From assembly GCA_020724585.1 (NCBI GenBank), contig DYGS01000001.1, forward strand, positions 486,002-550,001: a stretch of 64,000 nucleotides of DNA, read 5' to 3'. The translations under genes and the position numbers were made by a program. The DNA is from Candidatus Microgenomatus sp. Its GTDB lineage: Bacteria; Patescibacteriota; Microgenomatia; UBA8517. Shown here one piece after another: positions 37,019 through 51,892 of the stretch (its first letter is position 1; each line of letters starts with the position of its first letter). The notes under the pieces were generated by a model that saw nothing but the letters and a program-made list of their open reading frames with translations, did no database searches and was not told the DNA's origin.

Positions 37019-37102
37019 GGTGCGGTGCTGGAATTGGTATACAGGTTAGTCTCAAAAACTAATGGTGGCAACACCACGAGGGTTCGAATCCCTCTCGCAC
37101 CA
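37019..37102 (+). tRNA. tRNA-Leu (anticodon CAA), class II with long variable arm
   Basis: Acceptor GGTGCGG/TCGCACC. D-arm CTG-AATTGGTATA-CAG. Anticodon stem TTAGT/ACTAA with loop CTCAAAA, giving anticodon CAA. Variable arm GGTGGCAACACC. T-arm GAGGG-TTCGAAT-CCCTC. Discriminator A. No encoded CCA. Confidence 0.8.
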
Positions 37103-38615
37103 CAAGACAGCGACCTGTCGGGTCGGCGCAAAGCGCCGACCAAGCGTTTCTCCCATCCCCTCGGACAGTTTTGTTTTCTAAAAAGAGGTCTGAGCCGAAG
37201 ATTTTTGCGGCGAAGACCTTTTTAAGTTGCAAGTCCGCAGACTTGGCAACTTGTTCTACTTCTGTAGCCTCAGAAATCCAGTTTTTGAAAGGTTCGATCC
37301 AACTCCCTTGATGTTTTTTGTTGTTAATAATTTGTTCTTCAAAAGTTTTCTTTTGAGATACAAGTTGGAGCTTACTTTCTTGAAATGTTTCTTTATCTAT
37401 AATTTGATCTAAGTAACTATCTAGGAGTAACTTTAGTTTAATATCAATTGCTTCAACTTGTTGTCTTTTCAAATTATTAACCTCAAGGGAGGACTTGGCT
37501 AAATCAGATTCTTCTTTTTTAAGTCTTAATAACATCTGATTAGCCCAAGTCTTTTTCAAAGAATACTTTTTGAGAATATTGGTTAATTGTTGATCAAGAT
37601 CATCTTCTGTGATGTGAGGTTGAGAACAGGAGATTAGCTTATTTTTCTTGGTACAGTGATAATAATGATAAGTTACTTCTCTATTAGTACCTTTGTAGAA
37701 TTTAGTTTTATAATCTCCTGTTATCATCATTCCACACTCACCACACCTTAAAATGCCGTTATATGGCTTAATTGGGTGATCTTGATCTGCTTTTACCCAA
37801 GGGCCATTTCTAATCTTTATAACTTCTTGGACTTTATCAAAAAGTTTCTTTGAAATAATTGGATCGTATCTGCCCTCATATACTTCACCTCCATATTTAA
37901 AAACTCCGTAGTAAAATGAATTTGTAAGTAACTTTTTAGTTTTATCTATCCTTAAATTTTTATTCTTAGAGGTAATAATACCTTTTGATGCTAAAAAGCT
38001 AGAAACTTTCTTTATTTGTATATCTCCTTTGGAATACATTTCAAAAGCCTTAATAATATGTGGTGCAACTTTTTTATTAATAACTATTGATTTATCTCTA
38101 CTGTCATTTAAATATCCAAGAGGAGATCTCCCTGGCATGAAACCGTTTCTAGCTTTTTGCCTTAACCCACGACGAGTGTTTTCACTTAAACTGTCAACAT
38201 AATACTTGCTTTGGCTAAACGAAATTGAAAGCATGAACTTCCCTTGAGGAGTGGGTTCAAACCAAAAGGTATTAAACTTGAGGGCAGATATTTTTCCTGT
38301 ATCTATTAAATAAATAATTCTTCCTCCATCTACTGAGTTTCTTGCCAAACGATCTGGATGCCATGAAATTATTCCAGAAGCACGACCTTTTTCAATACTG
38401 TCTAACATTTTATTAAAAATAGGACGTCCAGGAATCTTGGCAGATTGTTTCTCCACTAATTCTTCTACGATTGTTAGTCCCTCACGTTTGGCAAGTAAAC
38501 GAAGTTCATCAAGTTGACCTTCTATTGATTGTACTTGCATATCCTCAACATCTGTTGATTTACGAGCATACAGGAAAAATTTTTGTGCTATTGGATTATT
38601 TACAATTGTAGCCAT
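37059..38615 (-). CDS. Large serine recombinase (resolvase/invertase catalytic domain + recombinase domain + Zn-ribbon + coiled-coil)
   Basis: N-terminus ...FLYARKSTDVEDMQVQSIEGQ... has the serine-recombinase YxRxST catalytic motif. Also a recombinase domain, a Cys cluster (CGECGMM...HYYHC) and a C-terminal coiled-coil. Start chosen at MATIV (38615), preceded by TATAAAT. The ORF reads through the left repeat into the tRNA, so the true 3' end is uncertain. Confidence 0.8.
   Translation of the reverse strand: MATIVNNPIAQKFFLYARKSTDVEDMQVQSIEGQLDELRLLAKREGLTIVEELVEKQSAKIPGRPIFNKMLDSIEKGRASGIISWHPDRLARNSVDGGRIIYLIDTGKISALKFNTFWFEPTPQGKFMLSISFSQSKYYVDSLSENTRRGLRQKARNGFMPGRSPLGYLNDSRDKSIVINKKVAPHIIKAFEMYSKGDIQIKKVSSFLASKGIITSKNKNLRIDKTKKLLTNSFYYGVFKYGGEVYEGRYDPIISKKLFDKVQEVIKIRNGPWVKADQDHPIKPYNGILRCGECGMMITGDYKTKFYKGTNREVTYHYYHCTKKNKLISCSQPHITEDDLDQQLTNILKKYSLKKTWANQMLLRLKKEESDLAKSSLEVNNLKRQQVEAIDIKLKLLLDSYLDQIIDKETFQESKLQLVSQKKTFEEQIINNKKHQGSWIEPFKNWISEATEVEQVAKSADLQLKKVFAAKIFGSDLFLENKTVRGDGRNAWSALCADPTGRCLVVREGFEPSWCCHH
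37101..37166. repeat. Left copy of a perfect 66-bp inverted repeat flanking the serine recombinase gene
   Basis: 37101..37166 is the exact reverse complement of 38701..38766. Begins at the last 2 nt of tRNA-Leu. GC-rich. Confidence 0.9.
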
Positions 38616-38700
38616 GCTACAATTATTTATACGCCCGTAAATAATCCAAATCAATATATCAAAATATCGCAATATTTTGACTCCTTAATTTGTAGTTTTT

Positions 38701-38766
38701 GTCCGAGGGGATGGGAGAAACGCTTGGTCGGCGCTTTGCGCCGACCCGACAGGTCGCTGTCTTGTG
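38701..38766. repeat. Right copy of the 66-bp inverted repeat
   Basis: Exact reverse complement of 37101..37166. Confidence 0.9.
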
Positions 38767-39030
38767 CCTTTGTATGAAAAGGCACGAACTTATTTTATTC
38801 AAAATTTCTAAAGTACAAAGCATATTTTATCACGAAAGTGACAAACTTGTTTACCACAAAATTTTGATGTGTGAGCGGAGCAACAAGGGAGGGGTTAAAG
38901 GGGAAGGAATTGTTGCGGAGCATCGGGTTCCCGCTCAGCTCCGCTTCGCGGAGCTTCGCTAACCCATATCGTGTGTGCGCTCCAGGCCTCCACTCGCTTC
39001 GCTCGTTTCGGCCTTCCGCTTACCCACTGT
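38763..39030. repeat. 267-bp GC-rich repeat, copy 1 (inverted partner at 59512..59778)
   Basis: ~99% identical in reverse complement to 59512..59778 (one mismatch seen). Abuts the 66-bp repeat with no spacer. The ORFs at 38699..38962 and 59574..59774 are the same sequence read within the two copies. Confidence 0.9.
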
Positions 39031-39129
39031 GTTTTGTTGTTATGCCCAGCCCACGCTTACTGTTAACATAAAATACTCGTTTAACCTTATGAATACTTAT
39101 TTTATACAACTATGCCTGATGTAGCTTTG

Positions 39130-39645
39130 CTATTTCTTCCAAATTCCTATTTTATTTTGTTTTGCTTCTTCTTGTGCTTCTAATAATTGAACTTGATGAA
39201 TAAATGGCTTTCTTTTTTGATATATAACTAATTCAGCCATACCTTTTCGCACAAGTTCAATGGAGATGTTCTTTCCATCAATGATTGGATATGCAAGAAT
39301 TCTTCCAAATTTGTCTGAAGTATAATTGTCATATTCAAGTTTTATTTCTTTACCTTCAACTAAATTTCTATTTGCTTCAGTAGATTCTTTTTCAAAAGGT
39401 TCTCCAGTTTCAGGAGCTGTCATACCAACATATCGTAATACTGTACTGTTAAATAACTCCACAGTGTCTCCATCTATTACTCTTTTAACAACTGCAGTTT
39501 TGGGAAGTTTTGTAATATCATGGCTCTCAATTGCTTCTCTAGAATCTAAAACTTTTCTTATATCATCTTCATATTCTGTACCCTTTGCTAAATCCTTTAA
39601 ATTTTTAAGAAGATCAACTGGAACTAATACGAATTTATTATTCAT
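39130..39645 (-). CDS. Staphylococcal-nuclease (SNase/thermonuclease) family protein
   Basis: ...VIDGDTVELFNS...RYVGMTAPET...KFGRILAY... matches the SNase OB-fold catalytic pattern. Confidence 0.7.
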   Translation of the reverse strand: MNNKFVLVPVDLLKNLKDLAKGTEYEDDIRKVLDSREAIESHDITKLPKTAVVKRVIDGDTVELFNSTVLRYVGMTAPETGEPFEKESTEANRNLVEGKEIKLEYDNYTSDKFGRILAYPIIDGKNISIELVRKGMAELVIYQKRKPFIHQVQLLEAQEEAKQNKIGIWKK

Positions 39646-39674
39646 AATTTAATAATACTACCTTTTAATTATCC

Positions 39675-40955
39675 TTAAAACCAATCCCATTCTGGATTAT
39701 CTACTTCCTCAATTTTACTTTTGTTCATCTTGAACATGTTATCCTCTAAAACTGTTTCCCATGTCCCTTGGTAATAATGTGTTTCAAGTTCTCCATCTAC
39801 CCAGTTTTGAGTTGAAAATTTTACATACACAGTATCTTTAGAATTTTCATACTTTTCTGTATTTATGACTTCAACGTCTAAAATATCTGTAAATCTATTC
39901 GTCCATTCAGTAAAGTTTGTTTTTTCTAAATATTTTGAACTTAACAATTCAAATCCTTTTTCCATTTGTCGTGCTTTTAGATATGTGTAAAAAGCAAAAA
40001 CAGCGTCTTCAGGAGATTTTGTAGGATCGACTTCAATCTTTGTGATTTCTTGATCAGTTAAGTTGTGTAAATTGTTTTTAACATCAAAAGCTGTGATAAA
40101 AAATGATATACCTGCCAAACTTTGTGTATTTACACCGACAAGATTACCACATTGATCAACCAATGGACCACCACTCATTCCTTTAACCAAACTAATATTT
40201 GTTTGAATATATCCTACAAAATCTCTCCTACTTCTTCTGAAATCAATAAAATTACCCTTAACAATTGTTGGATTACCTGTTATCTCAGACCCCAATGGGT
40301 AACCAGCAGAGAGTAATATTTCGTCGTCATGCAAATCATACAAATCTCGAAGCTCATATACTTTCTCGGGATAATTTCCTGCAAGTGTTAAAACTGCAAT
40401 ATCCATATTTTTGTCTCCAACTATCTTTATTGGGGTTTCAAAATGTCCATCAGAAAAAACAACTTTTGGGCTAGGTTCATCTGCGATTACATGGAAATTT
40501 GTTACAACTTCAGTTGGAGTTATAAAAAATCCTGATCCTTCGCCATATCCACCTATAATTCTAGCAACAGATGATTGAAGTTTTGTTTTTACTCCAACAT
40601 CGCACCACAATTTACTGATATCACCATATTGTCTAGTAATGTAATCAGCAATAACTAAAAGTGAAAAGCAAATATATATAGTTAACCCGAACCAAACAAT
40701 AGTTTTTATAAAATTAGTAAATTTCAAAAATGGCCACTTAATCAAGAACCAAAGTAATTTAAATAGCTTAATTAAAAATACTATTAAGAATTTAACAAAA
40801 TAATAAGTTGAATAAGTTAAAAGTTTGATTGGAAATAGATATAAAGGGAAAAGAAGCCGTTTTATATATTTTTTAAACTTATCAAGGAATATAGTAGCTT
40901 TACCATGAAGTATGTTTGAAATTTTATCAATATTTTTGTTTATAATATTTTTCAC
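39675..40955 (-). CDS. Trypsin-like (S1/HtrA-type) serine protease with N-terminal membrane region
   Basis: TNFHVI (His), ...DIAVL (Asp) and GMSGGPLV (Ser) catalytic-triad motifs. N-terminal TM helices. Confidence 0.7.
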   Translation of the reverse strand: MKNIINKNIDKISNILHGKATIFLDKFKKYIKRLLFPLYLFPIKLLTYSTYYFVKFLIVFLIKLFKLLWFLIKWPFLKFTNFIKTIVWFGLTIYICFSLLVIADYITRQYGDISKLWCDVGVKTKLQSSVARIIGGYGEGSGFFITPTEVVTNFHVIADEPSPKVVFSDGHFETPIKIVGDKNMDIAVLTLAGNYPEKVYELRDLYDLHDDEILLSAGYPLGSEITGNPTIVKGNFIDFRRSRRDFVGYIQTNISLVKGMSGGPLVDQCGNLVGVNTQSLAGISFFITAFDVKNNLHNLTDQEITKIEVDPTKSPEDAVFAFYTYLKARQMEKGFELLSSKYLEKTNFTEWTNRFTDILDVEVINTEKYENSKDTVYVKFSTQNWVDGELETHYYQGTWETVLEDNMFKMNKSKIEEVDNPEWDWF

Positions 40956-40960
40956 TTCTC

Positions 40961-43900
40961 TTAATCAACATCATTCGTAGCAATATTAAAGAATCTTTCA
41001 AAGAATCTTGTTAGTTTATCAAGTACATTCTCACGTTTTTTGCTACGTTCGCCCGTTGGAGAAAAACGACCACCAGCAGGTAGTATTTTAGTGATCTCTG
41101 TACCTGTTGTTGCAACATTTCCGTTACGAAAAGCATTTTTAATAAATCGATATGTTGCTTCATGATCAAGATTTTCACTTGTAATAATTTGTTCAAGTTC
41201 TTCTACCTTTTTACCCTCAACAAATTTTTGCCAATCCTCCTCCACTACTGAATGTATATCAAGCGAAGATATAAACTGATTAATAAGATCTTTTTTGTTC
41301 CTAAGTTCGACGCTTGAATCTATAGCCTTATTTATATCAAGCAGTAATTCTTTATTTTTAGTATGATCCTCATGATATTTTTTAATTAAACCTAAGATAT
41401 AATCAATATTGATATCTATTTGTTTGATAAGCTCCATCTCAAAAACAATATCATCATTGACATTTTCCTTATCTACCTCGATATCTTTACGAAATTCGTT
41501 ATAAATATCGATGTAAGCACTGTGATAATCTTGAATATCTCGATCAGTCAAAATCTCGTTTCCTAAAAATTCATCAAAAGTAGCAAGTATATTTCGTACA
41601 CGTAAAATAGCACCATACAATTTAATAAAGTCTTTTTGATTCTGCTCGCCAACAATTCTTTCTCCAACAGGAAACTTTTCAAGTAGTTCTCTAACTAGAC
41701 TTTCATATCCACGTACATCCTTACCATCATCTTTATATCCGAAGTAATAATCATTATAAGCTTTTAAAAGAACGATTCCGCTAGCTTCTTTGTCACCAAA
41801 AAGAGCAATAGATTCATTTGTAGCTTTTTCAAGATTACGAAAACAAATAATATTACCAAAAGTTTTTATGCTATTTAAAATACGATTAGTCCTAGAAAAC
41901 GCTTGTAATAATCCATGCAATCTTAAATTCTTATCCACCCATAAAGTGTTTAGCGTTGTGGCATCAAATCCTGTCAAAAACATATTAACCACAATTAAAA
42001 TATCAATCTCACGATTTTTCATTCTTTCGCTTACATCTTTGTAATAGTTTTGAAATTTGTCGGATGAAGTATCATATGAAGTTCCAAACATCTGATTATA
42101 ATCACCAATAGCTTTTTCTAAGAAGTCTCTTGAGCTAACATCAAGTCCTGTTGTATCTTCTGAGTTTTCATCAATCATGCCATCCAAATCATCATCGTTT
42201 ACACCAAAACTATAAATTGTTGCAATTTTAAGTTGCTTATCGCTTGGAAGCCCTTCTAATTGTTTCTTAAATTCAGCGTAATATTTTTTAGCCACATCAA
42301 TTGTGGAAACAGCAAATATTGAGTTAAATCCTGCAAGTCTTCGATCCTTTAGTTTATAAAAAGTATTGCGCTTTGTTTTTTGATCAAAATGCTCTCTTAT
42401 ATACGTAACAATATTTGAAAGTCTCTCGGGAGCAGCTAAAATTGCCTCACGGTCTATATCACTTACTTTCTTATCTTCAATATTCTCGGCCTCACGAACT
42501 GTAGAAACGTAATCTACTTTAAACGGTAAAACGTTTTTATCAGATATAGCATCAACAATTGTATAAGTGTGTAATTTATCTCCAAACGCCTGTTCTGTTG
42601 TCTTTAAATTTGGTGTACCACCAGACGATGAATTCATGGCAAATATCGGTGTACCCGTAAATCCAAATATATGATAATTTTTAAATGCCTTAGTAATTGC
42701 TGTGTGCATATCACCAAATTGAGAGCGATGGCACTCGTCAAATATTAAAACAATATGATCTTCAAAAATTGTATGACCTGTATTTTTATTTATAAAACGA
42801 TCTAATTTTTGAATTGTGGTAATAATTATTTTCGCTTCTGGGTCACCCAATTGACGTTTCAAAATAGATGTACTTTTGTTACTATTGGCAGCACCTTTTT
42901 CAAATTTGTCATATTCCTTCATTGTTTGGTAATCTAAATCTTTACGATCAACAACAAAAACTACCTTTTTAATGTAAGGTAATTTACTAACAAGTTGCGC
43001 AGTCTTAAAACTTGTTAGTGTCTTTCCAGATCCGGTAGTGTGCCAAACATATCCACCTGCCTCGATTGTGCCTAACTTTTTATAATTTGTACTTATCTCA
43101 ATTCTTTTTAAAATTTTCTCAGTAGCAACTATTTGGTATGGTCGCATCACTAAAAGTAGTCGATCTGTTGTAAACACACAGTATTTAGTAAGGATATTCA
43201 GGAGCGTATGCTTAGCAAAGAATGTTTTAGCAAAATCAACTAAGTCAGTAATAGGACGGTTTGTTGCATCAGCCCACCAACTTGTAAATTCAAAACTATT
43301 ACTTGTTCTCTTTCCATTTTTAACAGAATTTCCGCCATTTTCTTTGACATACTGAAATCTAGTTGTATTACTATAATATTTTGTGTGTGTACCATTTGAA
43401 ATAATAAAAATTTGTATATACTCAAAAAGACCTGATTGAGCCCAAAAACTTTCTCTGTTATACCGATTAATTTGATTAAAAGCCTCTTGGATTGCCACGC
43501 CACGACGTTTAAGTTCGATATGTATAAGTGGCAGTCCATTAACTAGAACCGTAACATCGTATCGATTAGCGCGTTCTCCCTCGTCTGTTGCGTATTGATT
43601 AATAACTTGCAAACTATTGTCATGAATCGAATCTTTTTTAATAAGATAAATATTTTTAATAGCCCCATCATCACAAGTTAAATTTTTAATATAATCTTCT
43701 TGAATTGTAGTTGTTTTCTCAATAATGCTCTGATTTGGATTAGCAATTTCATTTTTGAAAAATCTTTCCCACTCTAAATCAGTAAAATTATATGAATTTA
43801 GTTTTTCAAGTTGTTTACGTAAATTTACAACCAAATCATTTTCAGATTTAATAGAAATATATTCGTATGCCTGTGATACAAGCTGTTTAATAAATTCTTT

Positions 43901-44023
43901 TTCCAGTTCAGCTTCACTTTGATACGTAGATTCACGTAGGTTGTTAGCAATCTCTGAGTAGTCAGCTACAACAGTACTTTCATTATTTTGTGAAACAATA
44001 TTATAATTTTGACTATTCGACAT
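40961..44023 (-). CDS. hsdR: Type I restriction enzyme R subunit
   Basis: 1020 aa. N-terminal PD-(D/E)xK region. SF2 helicase motifs (TGSGKT, DECH). Confidence 0.9.
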   Translation of the reverse strand: MSNSQNYNIVSQNNESTVVADYSEIANNLRESTYQSEAELEKEFIKQLVSQAYEYISIKSENDLVVNLRKQLEKLNSYNFTDLEWERFFKNEIANPNQSIIEKTTTIQEDYIKNLTCDDGAIKNIYLIKKDSIHDNSLQVINQYATDEGERANRYDVTVLVNGLPLIHIELKRRGVAIQEAFNQINRYNRESFWAQSGLFEYIQIFIISNGTHTKYYSNTTRFQYVKENGGNSVKNGKRTSNSFEFTSWWADATNRPITDLVDFAKTFFAKHTLLNILTKYCVFTTDRLLLVMRPYQIVATEKILKRIEISTNYKKLGTIEAGGYVWHTTGSGKTLTSFKTAQLVSKLPYIKKVVFVVDRKDLDYQTMKEYDKFEKGAANSNKSTSILKRQLGDPEAKIIITTIQKLDRFINKNTGHTIFEDHIVLIFDECHRSQFGDMHTAITKAFKNYHIFGFTGTPIFAMNSSSGGTPNLKTTEQAFGDKLHTYTIVDAISDKNVLPFKVDYVSTVREAENIEDKKVSDIDREAILAAPERLSNIVTYIREHFDQKTKRNTFYKLKDRRLAGFNSIFAVSTIDVAKKYYAEFKKQLEGLPSDKQLKIATIYSFGVNDDDLDGMIDENSEDTTGLDVSSRDFLEKAIGDYNQMFGTSYDTSSDKFQNYYKDVSERMKNREIDILIVVNMFLTGFDATTLNTLWVDKNLRLHGLLQAFSRTNRILNSIKTFGNIICFRNLEKATNESIALFGDKEASGIVLLKAYNDYYFGYKDDGKDVRGYESLVRELLEKFPVGERIVGEQNQKDFIKLYGAILRVRNILATFDEFLGNEILTDRDIQDYHSAYIDIYNEFRKDIEVDKENVNDDIVFEMELIKQIDINIDYILGLIKKYHEDHTKNKELLLDINKAIDSSVELRNKKDLINQFISSLDIHSVVEEDWQKFVEGKKVEELEQIITSENLDHEATYRFIKNAFRNGNVATTGTEITKILPAGGRFSPTGERSKKRENVLDKLTRFFERFFNIATNDVD

Positions 44024-45257
44024 ATTCTTTAAATGTTAGCAGTTTATTCCGATAGTATTCATATTGCAATCTACGGGCTTCAAGTTCAGCAGGTAAACCA
44101 ACTGAAATATCATTTACTAACGCGTCAAATTTATCCAAAATCGATACGATTCGATTTTGTTCGGATAAGGATGGAACAGGTACCTTAATTTTAGCAAGAT
44201 CCTTTGCAGAAACATCAATAACTTTAGTACCTTTTGCTAATTTTTTCTTTTCATCGAAAAAATATTTTGTTTGAGTGTAATAACTTAGATATTTTGGATT
44301 TTCCTTGTGTTTGAAAATTGAGGCATGTCCACCAGTAACAATCTCTTCATTTCCAAGCCAGGCGACGGTTTTACAAACGTCTTCAATATTCTCACTAGTA
44401 TTGGTTATTATCAAATCATTCTTTTGTACCCTTTGTAGTCTTTTGGCAGTTTCTCGAGATACAAAAGACTTAGTTTTATCGGCATAAGTACCGTAGTGTG
44501 TGTATATTTGACCATAGTGAATACATCCAACTCCATTTTCTGTAAAATCACTTTTAGGCAAGCCATTACCTCTCACAAATACACCAATATCTCCTAGTGC
44601 CTTTTGTTCTACTTTATCATCAAAAGTCATTAATTTATCTTTGTAATATCTATATTGTTTATTCCTTGCTTCTAATTCTGCTTCTAATTCTGCTTCTAAT
44701 TCTGCTTCTAATTCTGTAAAACTATTAAGAATTTTGACAATCTCATTTTGAATTGTAAGTGGTGGAACGGGAATTTTAAATTTTGTAAATTCCTCTTTTG
44801 TAATTGTTTTGATAGTACTACCACGAGCAATTTGCCTTTCAATATTAAATTTACTTTGTAGTTGATATGCAAAATATTTTTTATTTATCTCAATCTTATA
44901 ACTTTCGAAAATTGCCAGTGTACGATCTACATAACAATCATATTGGGTAATTGCAACTCGGCCTATGCTACCCTGCAAAGTCACAAGTACTGTATCCATT
45001 GGTACAAAAACGCTCATTTTTTGTGCTAACTTTGAGATTTTACGTTTTGTATTGTTAACTAACCGCATATCCTTAGCAACATCTGCAACCTGCACAAAAG
45101 GCTTCGCGTCTTCACCGTCGTACCAATTCTTATCACCATATGGTTGAGGAAATGAACCACGTCGATATGCCGCTATTTCACCTAGCTCCATATATTTCAC
45201 ACCATTAGGACATAACTCTAAAATCAGCTGATCAAATTTGCTTTGGTGCTTTGTCAT
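44013..45257 (-). CDS. hsdS: Type I R-M specificity subunit
   Basis: 414 aa. Two target-recognition domains separated by a central coiled-coil containing (ELEA)x4. Overlaps hsdR by 11 bp. Confidence 0.85.
   Translation of the reverse strand: MTKHQSKFDQLILELCPNGVKYMELGEIAAYRRGSFPQPYGDKNWYDGEDAKPFVQVADVAKDMRLVNNTKRKISKLAQKMSVFVPMDTVLVTLQGSIGRVAITQYDCYVDRTLAIFESYKIEINKKYFAYQLQSKFNIERQIARGSTIKTITKEEFTKFKIPVPPLTIQNEIVKILNSFTELEAELEAELEAELEARNKQYRYYKDKLMTFDDKVEQKALGDIGVFVRGNGLPKSDFTENGVGCIHYGQIYTHYGTYADKTKSFVSRETAKRLQRVQKNDLIITNTSENIEDVCKTVAWLGNEEIVTGGHASIFKHKENPKYLSYYTQTKYFFDEKKKLAKGTKVIDVSAKDLAKIKVPVPSLSEQNRIVSILDKFDALVNDISVGLPAELEARRLQYEYYRNKLLTFKEYVE
44668..44715. repeat. Perfect 12-bp x4 tandem repeat (gcttctaattct) inside the hsdS central conserved region
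   Basis: Four identical head-to-tail units, in frame, encoding ELEAELEAELEAELEA. Confidence 0.9.
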
Positions 45258-45272
45258 AAAAAATATTTATAT

Positions 45273-46598
45273 TTACTCTTCTTTATTTACTCCCAATGTA
45301 ACATCAAGATAACTAACATAGTTTTCTAGATTTCGAATCAATTCATCAAAGAGAACTATATCGATATTATTGAATGTAGTTTTTAGTTTTTTTATTTCCT
45401 TCTCTAATCGTGCTGTTAATTCGTCATTGACACTTTCAGACGTAATATGATCCCTAGAAGAAATTATTAAAATACCTCTTGGCCTATATATTTTATCGTT
45501 TTCAATTAGGGATTTTGTATATTTGTTTTCAATCTGAGTTGTATCTATGTTTTCAGTTCGCAGATCCATGTACTTGTTTAATTGAAAAATAGATTTGTTT
45601 AGATCATGAGAAGGATAATATGAATCCCTTCCTTTCTCTTTTCTAAATAAAATCGTCCGATGTGTTTTAATTTCGATAATATCTATGTTGTTGTAAATAT
45701 CTACAGCTAAAAAATCTGGTCTGGTTTCTTTTTCATAACCATCCATTTCCTTAAATACTATCTGAGAATAAAACTCCTTATAGTTCATTAAAAGAATTCT
45801 TAAGTATCGATCAAAATATAATTGCCAACACGATTCTAAACTTTTTCGCTCTTCGCCAAAGACTTTTTTTGAAAATGATTTGAGTTTAGTTTTATTGCCA
45901 GTGAGTGTCAAAAGTTCAGTACCAACTTTAATAATTTCTCTTATGCTTTCCTTATACAAAGGAAGGGTTTCTTTCATAGTAATCTTGTAAGCTCCATCTT
46001 TAATTTGTTCATCCATGAAATTCTTTATAAATGTTCTATCGCCCTTACTTAGAGCAATATATTTACCTTCAAATCCTTTAACCACATATCCAACATTTGC
46101 AAAAATAGCTGATGTATCAACTTGCGCACTGTCCCTCATGTTAAACTTATCTCTAACTATTTTTGATGTTTTCGTCTTAATCATCGTCACTTTGCTTAAA
46201 TGATCAAGGTAGTTATCAAATTTTCTAACATCAATTATTACAACATCATTGACGTCATATTCAGATGGAATATCACGCATAAAACTTAAGTATTTCTTTT
46301 GAATGTCCTGTAGGCTAGCAAACTCTTTAAGTTCTTTTTTAATCGTAAAGTTTTCAAAAGAAAAGTACTTATCTGTTATCTCTAATGAATTTTTATCCAA
46401 AATTACAGCACAAAAAAAATCATCTCTTTGTTTAACTTCGTCGATAGTATTTCTTTCACCGTCTTGATATACACTATCTTTTCTGTGCACGTTATAAAGC
46501 TTAAGAGTTATATAATTTTCATTTTGTGAAATAACAGGGTCTTCTTTACGATTCTGTTTGAAGCTATCAATTTTTATGTTTAGCGCATTTATATCCAT
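45273..46598 (-). CDS. PD-(D/E)xK nuclease-fold protein inserted between hsdM and hsdS (Shedu/DUF4263-like?)
   Basis: 441 aa. The C-terminal region ...RPDFLAVDIYNNIDIIEIKTH... fits the PD-x(n)-ExK restriction-endonuclease-fold motif. The N-terminal region is unrecognised. Confidence 0.4.
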   Translation of the reverse strand: MDINALNIKIDSFKQNRKEDPVISQNENYITLKLYNVHRKDSVYQDGERNTIDEVKQRDDFFCAVILDKNSLEITDKYFSFENFTIKKELKEFASLQDIQKKYLSFMRDIPSEYDVNDVVIIDVRKFDNYLDHLSKVTMIKTKTSKIVRDKFNMRDSAQVDTSAIFANVGYVVKGFEGKYIALSKGDRTFIKNFMDEQIKDGAYKITMKETLPLYKESIREIIKVGTELLTLTGNKTKLKSFSKKVFGEERKSLESCWQLYFDRYLRILLMNYKEFYSQIVFKEMDGYEKETRPDFLAVDIYNNIDIIEIKTHRTILFRKEKGRDSYYPSHDLNKSIFQLNKYMDLRTENIDTTQIENKYTKSLIENDKIYRPRGILIISSRDHITSESVNDELTARLEKEIKKLKTTFNNIDIVLFDELIRNLENYVSYLDVTLGVNKEE

Positions 46599-46601
46599 AC
46601 A

Positions 46602-48155
46602 TCAACCTTCTATATCTTCGACGATTTTGTCAATTTCAATTCTTAATTCATTTTGTCTTGACACAATTTTTGCAATTTTGGCATTTAATTCTGCTATATT
46701 TACTACTTCTCTTTTGTTTTCTGCTACTACATAACCTGATACCCCAATATTGTAATCATTTTCTGCAACTGCCTTGTTATCGACAAGTTTTGAAAAATAT
46801 TCGATATCTGTACGATCTGTAAATGCTTTTAAGATTTTTAATCTATTTGTTTCACTTAATTTGTTTTTGTTTCCATTTCGCACAAATTCTGAAGATGCAT
46901 CAATGAAAAGTGTTTTGTTATCACTTTTACTTTTCTTTAAGACAATAATACAAGTTGCAATTGTTGTTCCAAAGAATAAATCTGGTGGTAACTGAATTAC
47001 AGTATCAATGTAATTATTATCGATTAAATATTTTCTAATTTTTTGTTCAGCTCCACTACGATATAGAACTCCTGGAAATTCAACAATTGCAGCCGTTCCA
47101 CTTGTTGAAAGCCAAGATAGCATATGCATAGTAAAGGCAAGGTCAGCCTTACTCTTTGGAGCCAATACTCCTGCAGGAGAAAAACGAGGATCGTTTATCA
47201 AAAGTGGATTAGAATCACCTTCCCATTTAATTGAATATGGAGGATTTGAAACTATTGCATCAAACGGCTCATCATCCCAATGTTTCGGATCCGTTAGTGT
47301 ATCACCAAGTGCAACATTGAAATTATTATAATTAACATCATGTAAAAACATATTAATACGACAAAGGTTATAAGTAGTAATATTAATTTCTTGACCAAAA
47401 AACCCTTGACGAACATTTTCTTTCCCTAGAACCTTAGCAAATTTAAGAAGTAAAGATCCAGAACCACAAGCAGGGTCATAAACTTTATTTACTTCTTTTT
47501 TACCAACTGTTGTAATTTCTGCTAGCAGTTCGCTAACCTCTTGTGGTGTATAGAATTCTCCTCCAGATTTACCAGCGTTAGAAGCATACATGGTCATCAA
47601 AAACTCATAGGCATCACCGAACGCGTCAATTGTATTGTCAGAATAATTACCTAATTTAAGATTTCCTATTGCTTCAACTATTTTTGTAAGTTTTTGATTA
47701 CGTTGTTCGACTGTATTTCCAAGTTTGTTTGAATTGACATCAAGATCTGCGAACAAACCCTTCAAATCATCTTCACTATCTGTGCCTTTTGCTGAATTTT
47801 CAATTTTCTTGAATACTAACGATAGAGTTTCGTTTAGATTATTATCTGCACGAGCTTTTTTGCAAACATTTACAAAAAGTTCACTTGGTAATATATAAAA
47901 CCCTTTTTCCTTTATAGTATCTACTCGTCCAAATTCTGCTTCTTTATCTGAAAGGTTTGTATAATCAAAATCTTTATTACCTCCTCTATGTTCATCAGCA
48001 TTTATATAATTAACTAAGTTTTCACTAATAAAACGATAGAATAGCATTCCTAATACATATTGTTTGAAGTCCCAGCCATCAACACTACCGCGCAAATCGT
48101 TAGCAATTTGCCATATTGTACGATGTAATTCTGCACGTTCTTGTTCTTTATTCAT
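46602..48155 (-). CDS. hsdM: Type I R-M N6-adenine DNA methyltransferase subunit
   Basis: 517 aa. HsdM N-domain. SAM motif (DPACGSGSLL). Catalytic NPPY (VSNPPYS). Confidence 0.9.
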   Translation of the reverse strand: MNKEQERAELHRTIWQIANDLRGSVDGWDFKQYVLGMLFYRFISENLVNYINADEHRGGNKDFDYTNLSDKEAEFGRVDTIKEKGFYILPSELFVNVCKKARADNNLNETLSLVFKKIENSAKGTDSEDDLKGLFADLDVNSNKLGNTVEQRNQKLTKIVEAIGNLKLGNYSDNTIDAFGDAYEFLMTMYASNAGKSGGEFYTPQEVSELLAEITTVGKKEVNKVYDPACGSGSLLLKFAKVLGKENVRQGFFGQEINITTYNLCRINMFLHDVNYNNFNVALGDTLTDPKHWDDEPFDAIVSNPPYSIKWEGDSNPLLINDPRFSPAGVLAPKSKADLAFTMHMLSWLSTSGTAAIVEFPGVLYRSGAEQKIRKYLIDNNYIDTVIQLPPDLFFGTTIATCIIVLKKSKSDNKTLFIDASSEFVRNGNKNKLSETNRLKILKAFTDRTDIEYFSKLVDNKAVAENDYNIGVSGYVVAENKREVVNIAELNAKIAKIVSRQNELRIEIDKIVEDIEG

Positions 48156-48213
48156 AATATGTGCTTAATTTGCCTTGTTTTTATTTTACTACTTTTTAAT
48201 ATAAAATGACTAT

Positions 48214-48606
48214 GTGATTAAAAAAGATATCATTTCAAAATATCTACCTTTGCTTGTCTTTATATTTGGTTTCTCAATAATAGCCTTTTTGATTATTTCT
48301 CTTTCCGTAAACGAAAACCCGTCCGCAAAATATGATTTTGGCGACTATACTAGGAATGAGGTTTCTGATATAAACAAGGATATTAAAATAAGAGTATATG
48401 AATTATGCTCAGATGCTCCTAAATCTGATGAATGTAAATTTGCAATCAAACAGTGTTACGAAAATCAAAGTTGTCAAAATATGGTGTCCACATATCAACT
48501 TGCAAGAAATAAAACACCTGAGTTAGATAATTCAGCATTTATAAACGCATCGAAGGAATACATAAACATGTCACGTGCGAAACTAGGATTGCCAATATTA
48601 AAATAA
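48214..48606 (+). CDS. Small Cys-containing hypothetical protein with N-terminal TM/signal
   Basis: 130 aa. Hydrophobic N-terminus. Six Cys residues. Confidence 0.3.
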   Translation: MIKKDIISKYLPLLVFIFGFSIIAFLIISLSVNENPSAKYDFGDYTRNEVSDINKDIKIRVYELCSDAPKSDECKFAIKQCYENQSCQNMVSTYQLARNKTPELDNSAFINASKEYINMSRAKLGLPILK

Positions 48607-48617
48607 TAATTAGGAAT

Positions 48618-48965
48618 TTAAATTTTCTTCCTTAAAATAACATGTTTAAACCATTTTTCTTGAAATTCTGTTAGTTTTTCAATTTCTGAATCTGAAAAGT
48701 CTTGGCCATCTTGCGTAACAATTAATTTGTCATCGTCATCATCTGTTCTTCTGATTACTGCAACGCAAATTCCTTTAGTTTCTGTAATTGGTTTATCTAC
48801 TCCTAAAATATATGCATCTAGTTCTTCTCCATCTGCAGATTTTGTGTTTGGAATATAGCCATAGTTAACTTCATATGTAAAACCATGTTTTGGATGTTTC
48901 GATCCTAATGGTCTGTCAACTACTACATTTACTTTTTGGCCAATGAAAGTTAATGAGTTTACCAT
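48618..48965 (-). CDS. Mini inorganic-pyrophosphatase-like protein
   Basis: 115 aa. The segment ...VNYGYIPNTKSADGEELDAYILGV... parallels the ppa motif [21 protein letters not shown] found at 17724..18260. Confidence 0.4.
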   Translation of the reverse strand: MVNSLTFIGQKVNVVVDRPLGSKHPKHGFTYEVNYGYIPNTKSADGEELDAYILGVDKPITETKGICVAVIRRTDDDDDKLIVTQDGQDFSDSEIEKLTEFQEKWFKHVILRKKI

Positions 48966-49444
48966 AATTTTGTATTATATTCCTTTAGAACTCCTTCTGT
49001 AATTTCTACTTGGTTTGGAAATCTTAAATAATCTTTGAATTCATTTCTTTTAATCCATTTAATTTTTCTAATTTCAGAAGGATCTGGCTTTATATCTGAC
49101 TTCTTGCCTACAAATTTAACTATATATTGTCTTTGGGATTGACCAAGATATAACTGATGTTTTTTAAAAATTCTTTGGATAATTACTTTTAGTGGCCAGT
49201 TGTATGTAACTAAATTTTTACTTTTGAAAACAATTTCAAATTTGTTTGTTCCTAATTCTTCATGAAGTTCTCTTAATAATCCTTGTTCTTCTGTCTCACC
49301 TTTTTCAATTCCACCACCTGAAAAATTCCAATCATTTTCTCCATAGCTTACTAATTGATCAATCAAAAATTCATCTTTGTCATTAAATATAATTGCAATC
49401 GACTTTTTCCTATACAGATGTTCTATCATCCAGTTTTTAATCAT
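48959..49444 (-). CDS. NUDIX hydrolase
   Basis: Nudix box GGGIEKGETEEQGLLRELHEELG. Confidence 0.8.
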   Translation of the reverse strand: MIKNWMIEHLYRKKSIAIIFNDKDEFLIDQLVSYGENDWNFSGGGIEKGETEEQGLLRELHEELGTNKFEIVFKSKNLVTYNWPLKVIIQRIFKKHQLYLGQSQRQYIVKFVGKKSDIKPDPSEIRKIKWIKRNEFKDYLRFPNQVEITEGVLKEYNTKLW

Positions 49445-49473
49445 TTGTTAAAAGTATTATATAATCAAACTAA

Positions 49474-50469
49474 ATGAATCAAAATAAACAAAAGGATGAA
49501 AACTATCAATCTTTTCTTGAAAATCTGCATGGTAAATTAAATGCTTCTGATAATGTTCTTGAAGCTATTGTCAAAAGTTCTGTTGGATTTAGAGTTAAGG
49601 AAAAAAGAAAAGTTGTAGAGGGCGAAGTAAATGAAGTATATGATATTACACCCACACATGGTGAGAATATAATAGTTAGGATTTCAAGAGAGAAACACAA
49701 TCGTTTTGAAGCCGAAAAATGGGCATTGGATAAATGCAGGGATACTGGAGTCCAAGTTCCCGAGATACATTTGATAAGTGAGGTAGAAACAGATAAAGAA
49801 AAACTACATGTTTGTGTAGAATCTAAAATTGAGGGTGTTTCATTACAAACACTTATTAAACAAAATGCATTAAGTCAAAATGAGATTAAAGAAATAACAA
49901 TTAGTGCTGGTGAAATTCTTTCAAAAATTCATAGTATCAAAACAACAGGTTTTGGTGAAATAAACACCTTTGGTGTTGGTGAGTTTGAAACTTGGTCAGA
50001 ATACATGCTCAATCAGGACAAAAAAAGAGATCAGATCTTAGAAGAAGCAAGGAAAATAGGAGTTGATACCAAACTAGTTCAACAAGCCTTTGCTATACTT
50101 GATAAAAATAAAGATATTTATGAACATACAGATTCAAGACTAGCCCATTCGGACTATGGCATAAAACACATGCTTATTCATAAAGATAAAATAAATGGAA
50201 TAATAGATTTTGAAAATTGTAGAGGAGCAGATATTGCATACGACTTCTCTTGGTGGAACTACTTCGGACAAAACAGACCTCCAGTTGAATGGCTTATTGA
50301 AGGATACAAAAAGGATGGAAACTTAGGAGAAAACTTTGAAACAAGAATGCATTTAGTAAAAATAAGGATTGCTCTTGATCTTTTAATGTATTATGGAGAT
50401 ACAGGTCATAGTTTTGCAAAAGATATCACTGTCAGAAATTTAACTGAAGATATTACTTTCTTTAAATAG
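49474..50469 (+). CDS. Aminoglycoside-phosphotransferase (APH)/choline-kinase-family small-molecule kinase
   Basis: 331 aa. Brenner-type catalytic loop HSDYGIKHMLI and IDFENC (DFG-like) of the APH family. Confidence 0.6.
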   Translation: MNQNKQKDENYQSFLENLHGKLNASDNVLEAIVKSSVGFRVKEKRKVVEGEVNEVYDITPTHGENIIVRISREKHNRFEAEKWALDKCRDTGVQVPEIHLISEVETDKEKLHVCVESKIEGVSLQTLIKQNALSQNEIKEITISAGEILSKIHSIKTTGFGEINTFGVGEFETWSEYMLNQDKKRDQILEEARKIGVDTKLVQQAFAILDKNKDIYEHTDSRLAHSDYGIKHMLIHKDKINGIIDFENCRGADIAYDFSWWNYFGQNRPPVEWLIEGYKKDGNLGENFETRMHLVKIRIALDLLMYYGDTGHSFAKDITVRNLTEDITFFK

Positions 50470-50527
50470 GTACCAATCAAAACTTTTTTTCCTGATCAAC
50501 TTAGATAATTTATATTATAATTCCTAC

Positions 50528-51892
50528 ATGGCTAAAAAAATATCGTATGGTATAGATTTTGGTACCACCAACTCAACAATTGCTTATATCAATGAGAGGG
50601 ACGAACCTGTTAAGTTAAAAATTGACCCAAATGCTGATAATCCCTGCGTTATGCGTTCCGTGATCTATGTTAATCAAAAATTAGACATGTTGTTTGGCAA
50701 ACCTGCTGTTGACGCATACATAACAGATGTCGCTCTAAACAAAGAAAGCAAAAAAAGGATAATTGAAACAGGAAGAATGATAAAAGTCGCCCAACCTGCA
50801 AATGCAGGCGGATTTGTACCAGACAAAATTGTACCTGAAATTATTGAAGTTGAAGAGTCTGATGGAGGAAGGCTCTTGCAAGCACTTAAAAGTAATCTAT
50901 CAAGTCAAATTGTTTCTAATATTAATTTGTTTGGAAGCAACAAACCTATTGAATGGGTGGTGGGACAATTTTTAAAAGAAATGAAGCAAAGAGCTGACGA
51001 AATTATCGGAGAATCTATAAATAAAGTAGTTATAGGTAGACCTGTTGAATACGTTGGCGGTAACAATCAATTAGCCATCGACAGAATGAGATCTGCAGCA
51101 AAAATTGCCGGCTTTAAGGAGATAGAATTTGAATATGAGCCCATAGCAGCTGCATATGATTATGGAATTGATATTAAGAATAAACAAATATCACTAATAT
51201 ACGACTTCGGCGGAGGCACATTAGATATTTCAATCGTAAGATTCCCAGAAAAGGAAGTTTTAGCAAACGTAGGATTGCCAATTGGAGGTGATCATTTTAA
51301 TACAAAAATTTTTACTTCTGAACTTTCACAATATTTTGGGAAGGGTTCAAAATATGGACTAAGACAATTAAGTTTACCTGAAAGCATATTTGCTTCAATG
51401 AAAAACTGGTATTTAATATCATTATTAAAAACAGAAAGTTTTGCCAACAGTATCGAACATTTTAAATTTATGAATACCAACCCCAAAGCACTTTTAGCTC
51501 TAAAATCTTTAGTGTTTAATAACCTAGGATTTGGTATATATGAAGAAATTGAAAAAGTTAAAAAAAATCTCTCTTCAAAGGAATTTGAAAAATATAATTT
51601 TATAGCTAAAGATATTGAAATTAACACTACGATTACTAAAAATGTATTTGAGAAGATAATCCAAGATGATTTAGTTAATATAGACAAAACAATTAATAAA
51701 GCACTTAAAGCAGCAAATATAAAAAGTGAGGAAATAGACGCTGTAGCAACAACAGGAGGATCTTCTTTGATTCCCGCAATCTATAAACAGCTTCAAAATA
51801 AATTTGGAGCCAAAAAGATTAAAGAAAGTGATGCCTTTACGTCAGTTGCCGCAGGACTAGCCCACAGAGCTAAGGAAATTTTTAGTCGTTAG
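50528..51892 (+). CDS. Hsp70-family (actin-like ATPase) protein, NBD-only (YegD-like)
   Basis: GIDFGTTNS (phosphate-1), DFGGGTLD (phosphate-2) and TTGGSSLIPAI (adenosine) motifs. 454 aa, so no substrate-binding domain. Confidence 0.65.
   Translation: MAKKISYGIDFGTTNSTIAYINERDEPVKLKIDPNADNPCVMRSVIYVNQKLDMLFGKPAVDAYITDVALNKESKKRIIETGRMIKVAQPANAGGFVPDKIVPEIIEVEESDGGRLLQALKSNLSSQIVSNINLFGSNKPIEWVVGQFLKEMKQRADEIIGESINKVVIGRPVEYVGGNNQLAIDRMRSAAKIAGFKEIEFEYEPIAAAYDYGIDIKNKQISLIYDFGGGTLDISIVRFPEKEVLANVGLPIGGDHFNTKIFTSELSQYFGKGSKYGLRQLSLPESIFASMKNWYLISLLKTESFANSIEHFKFMNTNPKALLALKSLVFNNLGFGIYEEIEKVKKNLSSKEFEKYNFIAKDIEINTTITKNVFEKIIQDDLVNIDKTINKALKAANIKSEEIDAVATTGGSSLIPAIYKQLQNKFGAKKIKESDAFTSVAAGLAHRAKEIFSR

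What the first reader, a model, noticed from the sequence alone, without database searches (positions are those of the whole stretch)
37019..38766. Large serine recombinase gene enclosed by perfect 66-bp inverted repeats, beginning at the 3' end of tRNA-Leu(CAA)
37101..37166 and 38701..38766 are exact reverse complements. They are GC-rich, and the left copy starts in the last 2 nt of the tRNA. Between them is a single large serine recombinase gene. Its ORF reads through the left repeat into the tRNA on the opposite strand. A recombinase bracketed by long perfect inverted repeats is the architecture of an invertible DNA switch or a TIR-bounded mobile unit. The tRNA 3'-end location is a classic integration hotspot. 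Perfect identity of the arms implies recent formation or ongoing gene conversion/inversion.
Basis: seen in the sequence. Interest (0 to 1): 0.7.

Follow-up and report, generated by a model that had tools for sequence, protein, structure and literature searches.

The report
Integrase flanked by duplicated attachment site
The perfect inverted repeat is real: it is one arm of the attachment site of a 22.7-kb mobile island inserted at the end of a tRNA gene, and a second, inverted copy of that whole site sits upstream of the integrase, a layout shared by a large family of elements in candidate-phyla-radiation (CPR) bacteria for which my literature searches found no description.

Summary
Arms 37101-37167 and 38700-38766 are exact reverse complements. 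They enclose one large serine recombinase gene whose ORF runs through the left arm into tRNA-Leu(CAA).

The window holds a second inverted repeat of 267 nt with one mismatch (38762-39028 / 59508-59774). It shares the 5-nt core CACAA with the first.

The layout on the + strand is: tRNA | arm | integrase | arm' | D1' | 20.5-kb low-GC cargo (type I restriction-modification, Shedu, nuclease) | D2 | native trailer next to dnaB. So attL is tRNA·arm and attR is D2·trailer. An intact inverted copy of the reconstructed attP (D1·arm) lies just upstream of the integrase.

The layout recurs across 160 related Patescibacteria loci:
- 56 of 64 loci with enough flank have such arms; 32 are perfect; median 114 nt.
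- 84 of 98 abut a tRNA 3' end (29 anticodons).
- About 25 loci show the D2 copy followed by a terminator-like trailer.

The D arm carries a T-loop mimic set 4 nt further out than the real T-loop, resembling the reported attP/attB offset.

The recombinase cassette is not a TIR-bounded transposon. Its inversion is possible but was not seen in unambiguous contigs. The function of the spare attP is unknown.

The parts
37019..37103 (+). tRNA-Leu(CAA), the integration target. Its T-loop and acceptor form the bacterial half-site (T) of attL.
   Evidence: ARAGORN; Rfam tRNA 55.2 bits; cloverleaf fold.
37101..37105 (+). Core CACAA at attL (tRNA position 72, discriminator, then CAA in the CCA position). 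The crossover must lie in this shared stretch.
   Evidence: The same 5 nt follow T (37101), D1 (38766-38762 on the minus strand) and D2 (59770-59774); sequences diverge on both sides.
37101..37167 (.). Proximal arm (ARM_p). It is the element-side arm of attL, it encodes the last ~22 codons of the integrase before the junction, and on the tRNA strand it carries a 9-bp GC hairpin directly after the tRNA.
   Evidence: Third codon positions in the arm are as conserved as first and second positions.
37059..38615 (-). Large serine recombinase (integrase) ORF, 518 aa. The last 14 codons are the antisense of the tRNA.
   Evidence: tails of homologues contain G[FIL]EP, the antisense of the T-loop; distant CcrB/XisF hits; residues 474-518 pLDDT below 50.
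38616..38699 (-). Unique leader/promoter region of the integrase, between the distal arm and the ATG.
   Evidence: It is 95% identical in L001. By eye it contains TTGATT-17-TATAAA; this was not reported by the consensus scan.
38700..38766 (.). Distal arm (ARM_d), an exact inverted copy of ARM_p and part of the internal attP copy.
38762..39028 (-). D1, the P-type arm of the internal attP copy. It holds a 60-nt conserved core with T-loop mimic (AAAATAAGTTCGTGC), three TTTTGnnATAAAAT-like boxes and GC-rich hairpin modules.
   Evidence: Inverted repeat I1; alignment; family consensus; one mismatch at 39008.
38881..38915 (-). Hairpin CAACAA / 23-nt C,U-rich loop / TTGTTG inside D1 (copy in D2 at 59621-59655).
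   Evidence: Loop conserved and stems fully different in 9 further loci. No Rfam match.
39029..59507 (.). Cargo, 20.5 kb, GC 31% against 36% in the flanks. It encodes an SNase nuclease, a trypsin-like protease, type I restriction-modification (hsdR, hsdS, hsdM) with a Shedu gene between hsdS and hsdM, NUDIX, an APH-like kinase, an Hsp70-like protein, a methyltransferase, FolE2 and unknowns.
59508..59774 (+). D2, an inverted copy of D1 ending in the core CACAA. It is the element-side arm of attR.
   Evidence: An independent Logan contig reads dnaB-D2-cargo exactly as in the window.
59775..59800 (+). Y, the native sequence that followed the tRNA before insertion. The dnaB stop codon is 3 nt from the core.
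   Evidence: In 9 other loci the sequence after D2-CACCA is a terminator-like hairpin. dnaB identified.

Best explanation
The recombinase is the integrase of a 22.7-kb genomic island (about 37101-59774) inserted at the 3' end of tRNA-Leu(CAA), between the discriminator/CCA position and the tRNA's former trailer.

Shown:
- attL is tRNA·arm (37101-37167).
- attR is D2·trailer (59508-59774, then Y).
- The two junctions share only the core CACAA in direct orientation, as expected for a serine-integrase product.
- The reconstructed attP is therefore D·arm, and it overlaps the 3' end of the integrase ORF.
- A complete second copy of this attP (D1·ARM_d, 38700-39028) lies in inverted orientation just upstream of the integrase.
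- This creates two adjacent inverted-repeat pairs: 67 nt around the integrase and 267 nt around the cargo.

Inferred:
- The integrase reads the tRNA T-loop/acceptor as its bacterial half-site and a T-loop mimic in D, set 4 nt further from the core, as its element half-site.
- Strand exchange occurs within tRNA positions 72-74.
- The arm replaces the tRNA's displaced trailer with its own hairpin.
- The excised form would be a circle in which two inverted attP copies separate an integrase arc from a cargo arc.
- The copies stay identical through gene conversion or flip-flop recombination between them.

What the spare attP does is not established. My preferred guess is control of the integrase (operator, or antisense/panhandle RNA), together with a capacity to invert the two arcs.
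For: Window anatomy: two inverted-repeat pairs that share the core. The cargo is compositionally distinct and rich in defence genes.

Family evidence from two independent collections (analysed in 25, 69 and 73):
- 56 of 64 loci with enough flank have arms of at least 40 nt (32 perfect, median 114 nt, range 54-219).
- 84 of 98 proximal arms abut a tRNA 3' end, covering 29 anticodons and 14 amino acids.
- The arm starts with position 72 + discriminator + CCA, and the distal copy carries the same discriminator (A or T) as the local tRNA.

D2 copies of 150-300 nt, mostly 100% identical, lie 0.9-4 kb upstream in about 25 loci. They are followed by CACCA plus a terminator-like hairpin.

The D core consensus places GTTCGA at -25..-20 from CCA, against -21..-16 for the real T-loop. 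This resembles the ZD-motif offset reported for LI integrase attP versus attB (PMC3783163).

The constraint on the arm is at DNA level. Third-position identity in the arm against the rest of the ORF is 0.83 vs 0.62 (L003), 0.96 vs 0.71 (L002) and 0.78 vs 0.53 (L097). The arm-encoded tail is modelled with pLDDT below 50.

The arms co-vary perfectly between loci. Mismatches in imperfect arms rise from the core outward to the inner end, with counts of 16, 21, 30, 44 and 40 per fifth.

Contigs end k minus 4-7 nt beyond the distal arm: 134-137 nt for k141, 121-123 for k127, and three further contigs at 48-93 nt where the k values are my guesses. The D1/D2 repeat explains this.

Cargo differs between relatives, and no cargo gene is conserved.
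Against: - No empty attB (tRNA·Y) and no unambiguous excised circle was found. One metagenome pattern scan returned nothing, and exact-protein look-ups returned only occupied sites.
- No recombination directionality factor is identifiable in the small cargos, so excision is unproven.
- D·arm shows no clear dyad symmetry in my test.
- A circle with two equivalent attP copies should integrate in both orientations, yet the integrase 3' end nearly always faces the tRNA.
- Three loci with perfect arms abut non-tRNA sequence (L043, L053, L061).
- Two loci (L002, L029) have mismatched arms.
- The 4-nt offset differs from the published 5 bp.
- Activity of this protein has never been tested.
Confidence: 0.8

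Rival explanations
1. Self-inverting switch. The integrase recombines tRNA·arm with D1·arm (inverted sites with identical core and identical inner halves). The products are again the same two sites, so the cassette flips back and forth. This would change what is transcribed into the tRNA and the last ~14 residues of the integrase. It could coexist with the island model rather than replace it.
For: The geometry and matched non-palindromic core are what serine-recombinase inversion requires. Arms are kept identical family-wide. Five contigs (L014, L021, L025, L036, L171) have a tRNA upstream of the integrase. L126 and L182 have the 3' arm joined to D. An IR-flanked cargo segment is inverted between two samples of one population (L105 against L109). 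The two tails would be ...CLVVREGFEPSWCCHH and ...CLVPLYEKARTYFIQNF.
Against: Every contig with arms clearly shorter than k, plus the presumed long-read contig L037, shows one orientation. These are L001, L003, L005, L012, L084-L088, L093, L099 and L101. The opposite cases all have arms of at least ~125 nt and break off in the other arm, so they may be graph ambiguity. Known serine integrases recombine attP only with attB, not with attL (PMC3783163, abstract). The observed cargo inversion has its breakpoints at short S sites at the outer edge of D, not at the core.
Confidence: 0.25
2. TIR-bounded mini-transposon. The 1.7-kb unit arm-integrase-arm moves on its own and has inserted next to the tRNA.
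For: Long perfect terminal inverted repeats around a single recombinase gene; many different tRNA targets.
Against: In 36 of 36 aligned loci the distal arm is followed by the same conserved D core. Homology between elements at different tRNAs extends 170-300 nt beyond the arm. No locus has the distal arm next to a trailer. The two junction cores are inverted and non-palindromic, so excision by a serine recombinase would leave non-complementary overhangs (inference from established mechanism). No tRNA among 193 scanned has a bare tRNA·D' junction, which is the expected empty site of such a unit.
Confidence: 0.03
3. Assembly artefact or functionless recent duplication.
For: Perfect identity and a repeat length close to common k-mer sizes; many related contigs break nearby.
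Against: The same architecture appears in more than 100 contigs from different assemblers, samples and phylum-level CPR lineages. Arm lengths run from 54 to 219 nt, unrelated to k. One presumed long-read contig shows it too. Independent Logan and JGI contigs reproduce the window junctions base for base. Conservation of the layout alongside sequence divergence argues for selection.
Confidence: 0.02

Closest known systems
Phage-type serine integrases (phiC31, Bxb1, Listeria A118/LI) with attP x attB integration
   Same: Same three-domain architecture: catalytic, recombinase and zinc ribbon with coiled coil. Junctions share only a short core. The element half-site carries the same motif as the bacterial half-site but further from the centre, as reported for LI.
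   Different: The target is the discriminator/CCA end of many different tRNAs. attP overlaps the integrase's own 3' coding end. A second, intact, inverted attP is kept inside the integrated element. No directionality factor is recognisable. The cargo is not a phage. Only very distant sequence relatives have solved structures.
tRNA/tmRNA-targeting genomic islands with tyrosine integrases (Islander-type)
   Same: An island with the integrase next to a tRNA 3' end, the tRNA end restored by island sequence, and variable low-GC cargo that includes defence genes.
   Different: The recombinase family differs. Only 3-5 nt are replaced, rather than a long direct repeat of the tRNA 3' part. Inverted, not direct, repeats dominate the structure.
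Hin/Gin-type DNA invertases
   Same: In Salmonella the hin gene lies inside the segment bounded by inverted hix sites; here the recombinase also lies between inverted sites with an identical core.
   Different: Hin is a small serine recombinase with 26-bp sites and an enhancer. Here the enzyme is a large serine recombinase with 54-219-nt arms, and no orientation polymorphism of the cassette has been demonstrated.
Yeast 2-micron plasmid (FLP/FRT inverted repeats)
   Same: The predicted circular form would have two long inverted repeats, each holding a recombination site, dividing the circle into two unique arcs that can flip relative to each other.
   Different: FLP is a tyrosine recombinase and the 2-micron circle is an autonomous replicon that uses inversion for amplification. 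No replicon function is known here, and the circle itself has not been observed.
Non-phage large serine recombinases: CcrA/B (SCCmec), XisF, TnpX/TndX
   Same: These are the best NCBIfam hits (CcrB 111 bits, XisF 86 bits). They move or excise non-phage elements, some without a classical directionality factor (the latter point is from my own knowledge).
   Different: Scores are far below the family cut-offs (900 and 375). Those elements have no inverted duplication of the attachment site and no tRNA CCA-end targeting.
Engineered inverted-attP cassettes for recombinase-mediated cassette exchange (e.g. MiMIC)
   Same: A segment flanked by two inverted attP sites (bioRxiv 10.1101/2020.08.13.249656, listed).
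   Different: This is a man-made design. My searches found no natural counterpart.

Membership tests
Large serine recombinase / serine integrase | N-terminal resolvase catalytic domain with the serine nucleophile | tested here: met
   PF00239 E=2.5e-21 over residues 14-158. YARKS(20)TD is invariant in 22 homologues.
Large serine recombinase / serine integrase | Recombinase domain plus zinc ribbon with an inserted coiled coil | tested here: met
   PF07508 E=3.7e-12 and PF13408 E=3.4e-10. Four invariant Cys (C291, C294, C321, C330). Long helices at 355-435 in the model.
Large serine recombinase / serine integrase | Short att sites that share only a central dinucleotide; hybrid attL and attR after integration | tested here: met
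   tRNA·arm and D2·Y share only CACAA in the window. The minimal shared stretch in other loci is CAC or CTC.
Large serine recombinase / serine integrase | Catalysis of attP x attB recombination; a directionality factor for excision | not testable with these tools
   No biochemical data. No conserved cargo gene that could be a directionality factor.
tRNA-integrated genomic island | Integrase adjacent to a tRNA 3' end, with element boundaries marked by a repeated core | tested here: met
   family-wide.
tRNA-integrated genomic island | Cargo of atypical composition that varies between relatives | tested here: met
   GC 31% against 36%. L002 has the same tRNA and integrase but different genes beyond the nuclease. 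No cargo gene is shared among 13 elements.
tRNA-integrated genomic island | Empty target site in related genomes, or an excised circle | tested here: inconclusive
   None found. The searchable data were limited to exact matches.
Invertible DNA switch (Hin/Gin-like or inverton) | Inverted recombination sites flanking the segment | tested here: met
   identical core and arm at both sites.
Invertible DNA switch (Hin/Gin-like or inverton) | Both orientations present in populations or relatives | tested here: not met
   Integrase cassette: one orientation in all unambiguous contigs; the 5 opposite cases are ambiguous. Cargo segment: both orientations are seen in one related element.
Invertible DNA switch (Hin/Gin-like or inverton) | Small serine invertase with C-terminal HTH, or a tyrosine invertase | tested here: not met
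   518-aa large serine recombinase.
TIR-bounded transposon / insertion sequence | The inverted repeats are the termini of the mobile unit | tested here: not met
   Conserved D sequence continues beyond the distal arm in all aligned loci. The real right end is D2 at 59774.
TIR-bounded transposon / insertion sequence | Target-site duplication as direct repeats flanking the TIRs | tested here: not met
   The flanks are tRNA on one side and D on the other. The shared 5 nt are inverted, not direct.

The most novel reading that the evidence does not exclude
The twin inverted attP design is a functional device, not a by-product. It would give a normally one-way serine integrase a reversible or self-regulating behaviour without a directionality factor. 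Examples would be flip-flop of the integrase and cargo arcs (as in the 2-micron circle), cassette exchange of cargo between elements, or integration-state sensing through the arm that is at once attP half-site, integrase C-terminus, tRNA trailer/terminator and antisense partner of the integrase leader. The conserved C,U-loop hairpin in D might be a further RNA or DNA cofactor of the reaction.
Probability: 0.25. Interest if true: 0.85.

Novelty: new variant of a known kind. Interest (0 to 1): 0.68.

Why it matters
Candidate-phyla-radiation bacteria have tiny genomes and few described mobile elements. These integrative elements carry variable cargo, including restriction-modification and Shedu defence genes, to the ends of at least 29 different tRNA species.

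The att sites can be read directly from the sequence, which is rare for serine integrases. They include a natural T-loop mimic whose offset resembles the structural model of attP/attB discrimination. That makes the family useful for studying, and perhaps re-targeting, serine integrases.

The retained inverted attP copy is something I found no natural precedent for. It may point to a new way of controlling directionality or expression.

On the practical side, database proteins of this family carry spurious C-terminal tails that are antisense translations of tRNAs. The nested repeats also systematically break short-read assemblies of these genomes.

Tried and rejected
- **Known RNA in the arm or D region.** Rfam at gathering and at E up to 5 found only the tRNA.
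- **Exact look-up of the integrase.** Not on record.
- **Empty-site search.** The pattern CGAATCCCTCTCGCACCACAAAAAC in JGI metagenomes gave 0 hits. EF-P and DnaB look-ups returned only occupied or truncated contigs.
- **Viral collection.** Only 8 distant relatives, so this is not a typical prophage family.
- **Mini-element models.** I considered the integrase cassette and the cargo as two separate TIR elements with palindromic attP sites. This was rejected because of the inverted non-palindromic cores, and because no tRNA·D' junction exists among 193 tRNAs.
- **Dyad-symmetry test of D·arm and tRNA·arm.** No signal; uninformative.
- **RNAalifold on nine D regions.** The alignment was too gappy and predicted no pairs. 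A MAFFT alignment of the hairpins was out of register. I rely on the per-locus stem analysis instead.
- **L151.** This palindrome-ended contig looked like a circle junction, but its flank is neither D nor tRNA, so I treat it as graph ambiguity.
- **Reconstructed attB of L053.** It does not restore a disrupted gene; the insertion is intergenic at a pseudo-site.
- **Literature.** Four searches for CPR or Saccharibacteria serine recombinases at tRNAs, or for natural inverted attP, found nothing relevant.
Full report
**Observation.** Arms 37101-37167 and 38700-38766 are 67 nt long and 100% complementary. No chance occurrence appeared in 100 shuffles. Arm GC is 64% in a 34.5% GC window. tRNA-Leu(CAA) is at 37019-37103. 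The only real gene between the arms is a 518-aa large serine recombinase on the minus strand (37059-38615) with Resolvase, Recombinase and Zn_ribbon_recom domains. Its ORF crosses the left arm and stops inside the tRNA on the opposite strand.

**The same thing in relatives.** The protein has thousands of homologues, nearly all from Patescibacteria/CPR assemblies.
- The closest ones already show the architecture. L001 (93% identical protein, same EF-P/tRNA-Leu neighbourhood) has 69-nt perfect arms. L003 (76% identical) has 69-nt perfect arms next to tRNA-Tyr. L002 has diverged arms, 57 nt at 88%.
- I analysed 160 loci from two independent collections. Of the 64 with enough flanking sequence, 56 have arms of at least 40 nt. 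Thirty-two are perfect, 42 are at least 98% identical, the median is 114 nt and the range 54-219 nt.
- In 84 of 98 cases the arm at the gene's 3' end abuts the 3' end of a tRNA gene on the other strand. This covers 29 anticodon species and 14 amino acids.
- The protein alignment explains an oddity of database entries. Almost every homologue ends in ...VRGDGxNxWSALRAxPTGR (the translated arm) followed by G[FIL]EP, the antisense of a T-loop.

**What the arm is.**
- Arms begin with tRNA position 72, the discriminator and CCA (CACCA, CTCCA, TACCA, GCTCCA). The distal copy carries the same discriminator as the local tRNA.
- In the window the three codon positions of the arm are about equally conserved. 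In the rest of the gene third positions are much freer: 0.83 against 0.62 for L003 and 0.96 against 0.71 for L002.
- The arm-encoded tail is modelled without confidence, with residues 474-518 at pLDDT below 50 from a shallow alignment. The constraint is therefore on the nucleic acid.
- On the tRNA strand the arm supplies a small hairpin and a strong 9-bp GC hairpin directly after the tRNA.

**Beyond the distal arm.**
- The 60 nt outside the distal arm are conserved family-wide: A..aTTtt..t.AAAATagGTTCgAgC.t.GTtGTA.Aa...CA|CCA. They contain a copy of the T-loop motif 4 nt further from CCA than the real T-loop is.
- Similarity between elements at different tRNAs runs 170-300 nt and then stops.
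- Many contigs end k minus 4-7 nt beyond this arm, which pointed to a second junction partner for this flank.
- Searching a palindromic box from the flank found a second perfect copy 20.8 kb away on the other strand.
- Alignment and the repeat finder then showed a 267-nt inverted repeat, 38762-39028 against 59508-59774, with a single mismatch at 39008.
- After the far copy (D2) comes CACAA and then unrelated sequence, with the stop codon of an intein-containing dnaB 3 nt away.

**Resulting map (+ strand).** tRNA | arm | integrase (minus strand) | arm' | D1' | cargo 39029-59507 | D2 | Y.
- tRNA·arm and D2·Y share only the core, in direct orientation. This is the signature of attL and attR of a serine integrase.
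- The reconstructed attP is D·arm, and D1·ARM_d is an intact inverted copy of it.
- The cargo has 31% GC against 36% in both flanks. It encodes an SNase, a trypsin-like protease, a type I restriction-modification system with a Shedu nuclease gene between hsdS and hsdM, and assorted enzymes.
- Independent Logan and JGI contigs reproduce both outer junction regions base for base.

**Generality of the full layout.**
- In about 25 other loci an inverted D2 copy (150-300 nt, mostly 100% identical) lies 0.9-4 kb upstream of D1.
- In 9 of the 13 D2 junctions I read out, the sequence after D2-CACCA is a terminator-like hairpin, as expected for a displaced tRNA trailer.
- The minimal shared stretch is CAC or CTC (L053, L035). 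This places strand exchange within tRNA positions 72-74.
- Cargo is unrelated between elements, and no cargo gene is conserved.

- The arm junctions are inverted and the core cannot be palindromic. From established serine-recombinase chemistry, with 2-nt overhangs that must be complementary, these two sites can invert the cassette but cannot excise it. The same holds for the cargo between D1 and D2.
- Only tRNA·arm with D2·Y can release a circle. The TIR-bounded-unit reading is therefore rejected. It is further contradicted by the constant presence of D next to the distal arm (36 of 36) and by the absence of bare tRNA·D' junctions.
- The switch reading stays open. One related element shows its cargo segment in both orientations in two samples of one study, although the breakpoints lie at short sites at the outer edge of D.
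- For the integrase cassette itself, all contigs with arms clearly shorter than k, and the presumed long-read contig, agree on one orientation. The five opposite contigs, and the two or three contigs with the 3' arm joined to D, are all open to assembly ambiguity.

**Mechanism.**
- Shown: the anatomy, its conservation, the position of the core, DNA-level constraint on the arm, and concerted evolution of both repeat pairs. The window and L003 differ at the same 7 of 67 positions in both arms.
- Consistent with published structural work: in LI integrase the zinc-ribbon motif sits at bp 16-24 in attP half-sites and 11-19 in attB half-sites (PMC3783163). Here the T-loop motif sits about 4 nt further out in D than in the tRNA.
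- Inferred: integration by attP x attB at the tRNA end, a circular intermediate with twin inverted attP copies, and homogenisation by gene conversion. Mismatches in imperfect arms increase away from the core, with counts of 16, 21, 30, 44 and 40 per fifth across 46 loci. That pattern fits either selection on both copies near the core or conversion starting there.
- Not explained: why a spare attP is kept, why the integrase almost always points at the tRNA, and how excision happens without a recognisable directionality factor.

**Comparison with the known.** The enzyme is a divergent large serine recombinase. Its best named relatives are CcrB and XisF, far below family cut-offs, and only catalytic-domain fragments have solved structures. 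The element behaves like a tRNA-targeting genomic island. The retained inverted attP, the nested repeats, the attP that doubles as integrase 3' end and tRNA trailer, and the T-loop mimic are features I found no description of. I therefore file it as a new variant of a known kind.

Noticed in passing
window 38881-38915 (-) and 59621-59655 (+); also L003, L005, L006, L011, L063, L084, L091, L097, L126: Hairpin inside the D repeat with a conserved 23-27-nt C,U-rich loop (UUCCUU(U)CCCCUUUAACCCCU...). Its 5-14-bp stems differ completely from locus to locus, which is clear covariation. There is no Rfam match. It could be an RNA or a DNA hairpin, and its role is unknown.
   Followed up: partly
window 38767-38870 (-), copy at 59666-59769 (+): Three TTTTGnnATAAAAT-like boxes precede the T-loop mimic in the window and L002; other subfamilies have one. 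They look like extended -10 promoters or iterated protein-binding sites.
   Followed up: no
L109/L106/L104 against L105 (same integrase protein P0095, different samples): A 3.3-kb block next to the integrase is inverted between samples. It holds a 912-aa gene, a 90-aa gene and GC-rich modules. The breakpoints are short imperfect repeats: GCAAAATTTTTCGCGCCG and CGACGCTAACAATTTTTAGG. In the inverted form the small upstream ORF is longer (at least 133 aa).
   Followed up: partly
L011 4788-4871; also L008, L047, L049, L070, L046, L126 (integrase leaders): A different conserved structured motif lies in the 5' leader of the integrase in some subfamilies: a long stem enclosing ...UUUUUAAUGGSCRUCUUGG... 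and ...ACCARGGYGSCCAUUU. There is no Rfam match.
   Followed up: partly
window 37168-37200 and homologous positions in other loci: The invariant integrase motif FGS(N)L is encoded by TTTGGCTCGAACCT. Its complement GGTTCGAGCC is the same 9-10-mer as the T-loop mimic of the D core. The inner end of the long arms falls inside this motif. Coincidence, common origin or a third binding site?
   Followed up: no
window 59117-59508: A 390-nt non-coding, hairpin-rich stretch with ACGGTA/TACCGT repeats at the cargo end next to D2. There is no Rfam match at gathering level.
   Followed up: partly
window 45273-46598 (-): A Shedu (SduA_C) nuclease gene is inserted between hsdS and hsdM of the type I restriction-modification operon in the cargo.
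   Followed up: no
window 59778-62363 (-): dnaB with an intein (Intein_splicing + LAGLIDADG_3). Its stop codon lies 3 nt from the att core, so tRNA-Leu and dnaB were almost touching before insertion.
   Followed up: no
L002 5358-5414 against 6950-7006; L029 upstream region: Hybrid elements. The proximal arm is of one lineage (window type) and the distal arm plus D are of another (L037 or L034 type). This suggests exchange of modules between related elements.
   Followed up: partly
L024, L046, L062: Relatives of the integrase sit directly downstream of a tRNA-Ala-like 3' end with its own terminator. It may be tmRNA by the look of the 3' end; in L062 ARAGORN calls a full tRNA-Ala. In L024 and L046 a second tRNA lies at the integrase 3' end. 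This arrangement was not resolved.
   Followed up: no
L043, L053, L061: Perfect arms whose proximal copy abuts non-tRNA sequence. In L053 the flank has GGTTCC 20 nt from the core, a possible pseudo-site.
   Followed up: partly
protein databases (P0001-P0120): Annotated lengths of these recombinases vary (404-904 aa). One reason is that gene callers run the ORF through the arm into the antisense tRNA. Another is that they start at upstream TTG/GTG codons within the conserved leader.
   Followed up: no
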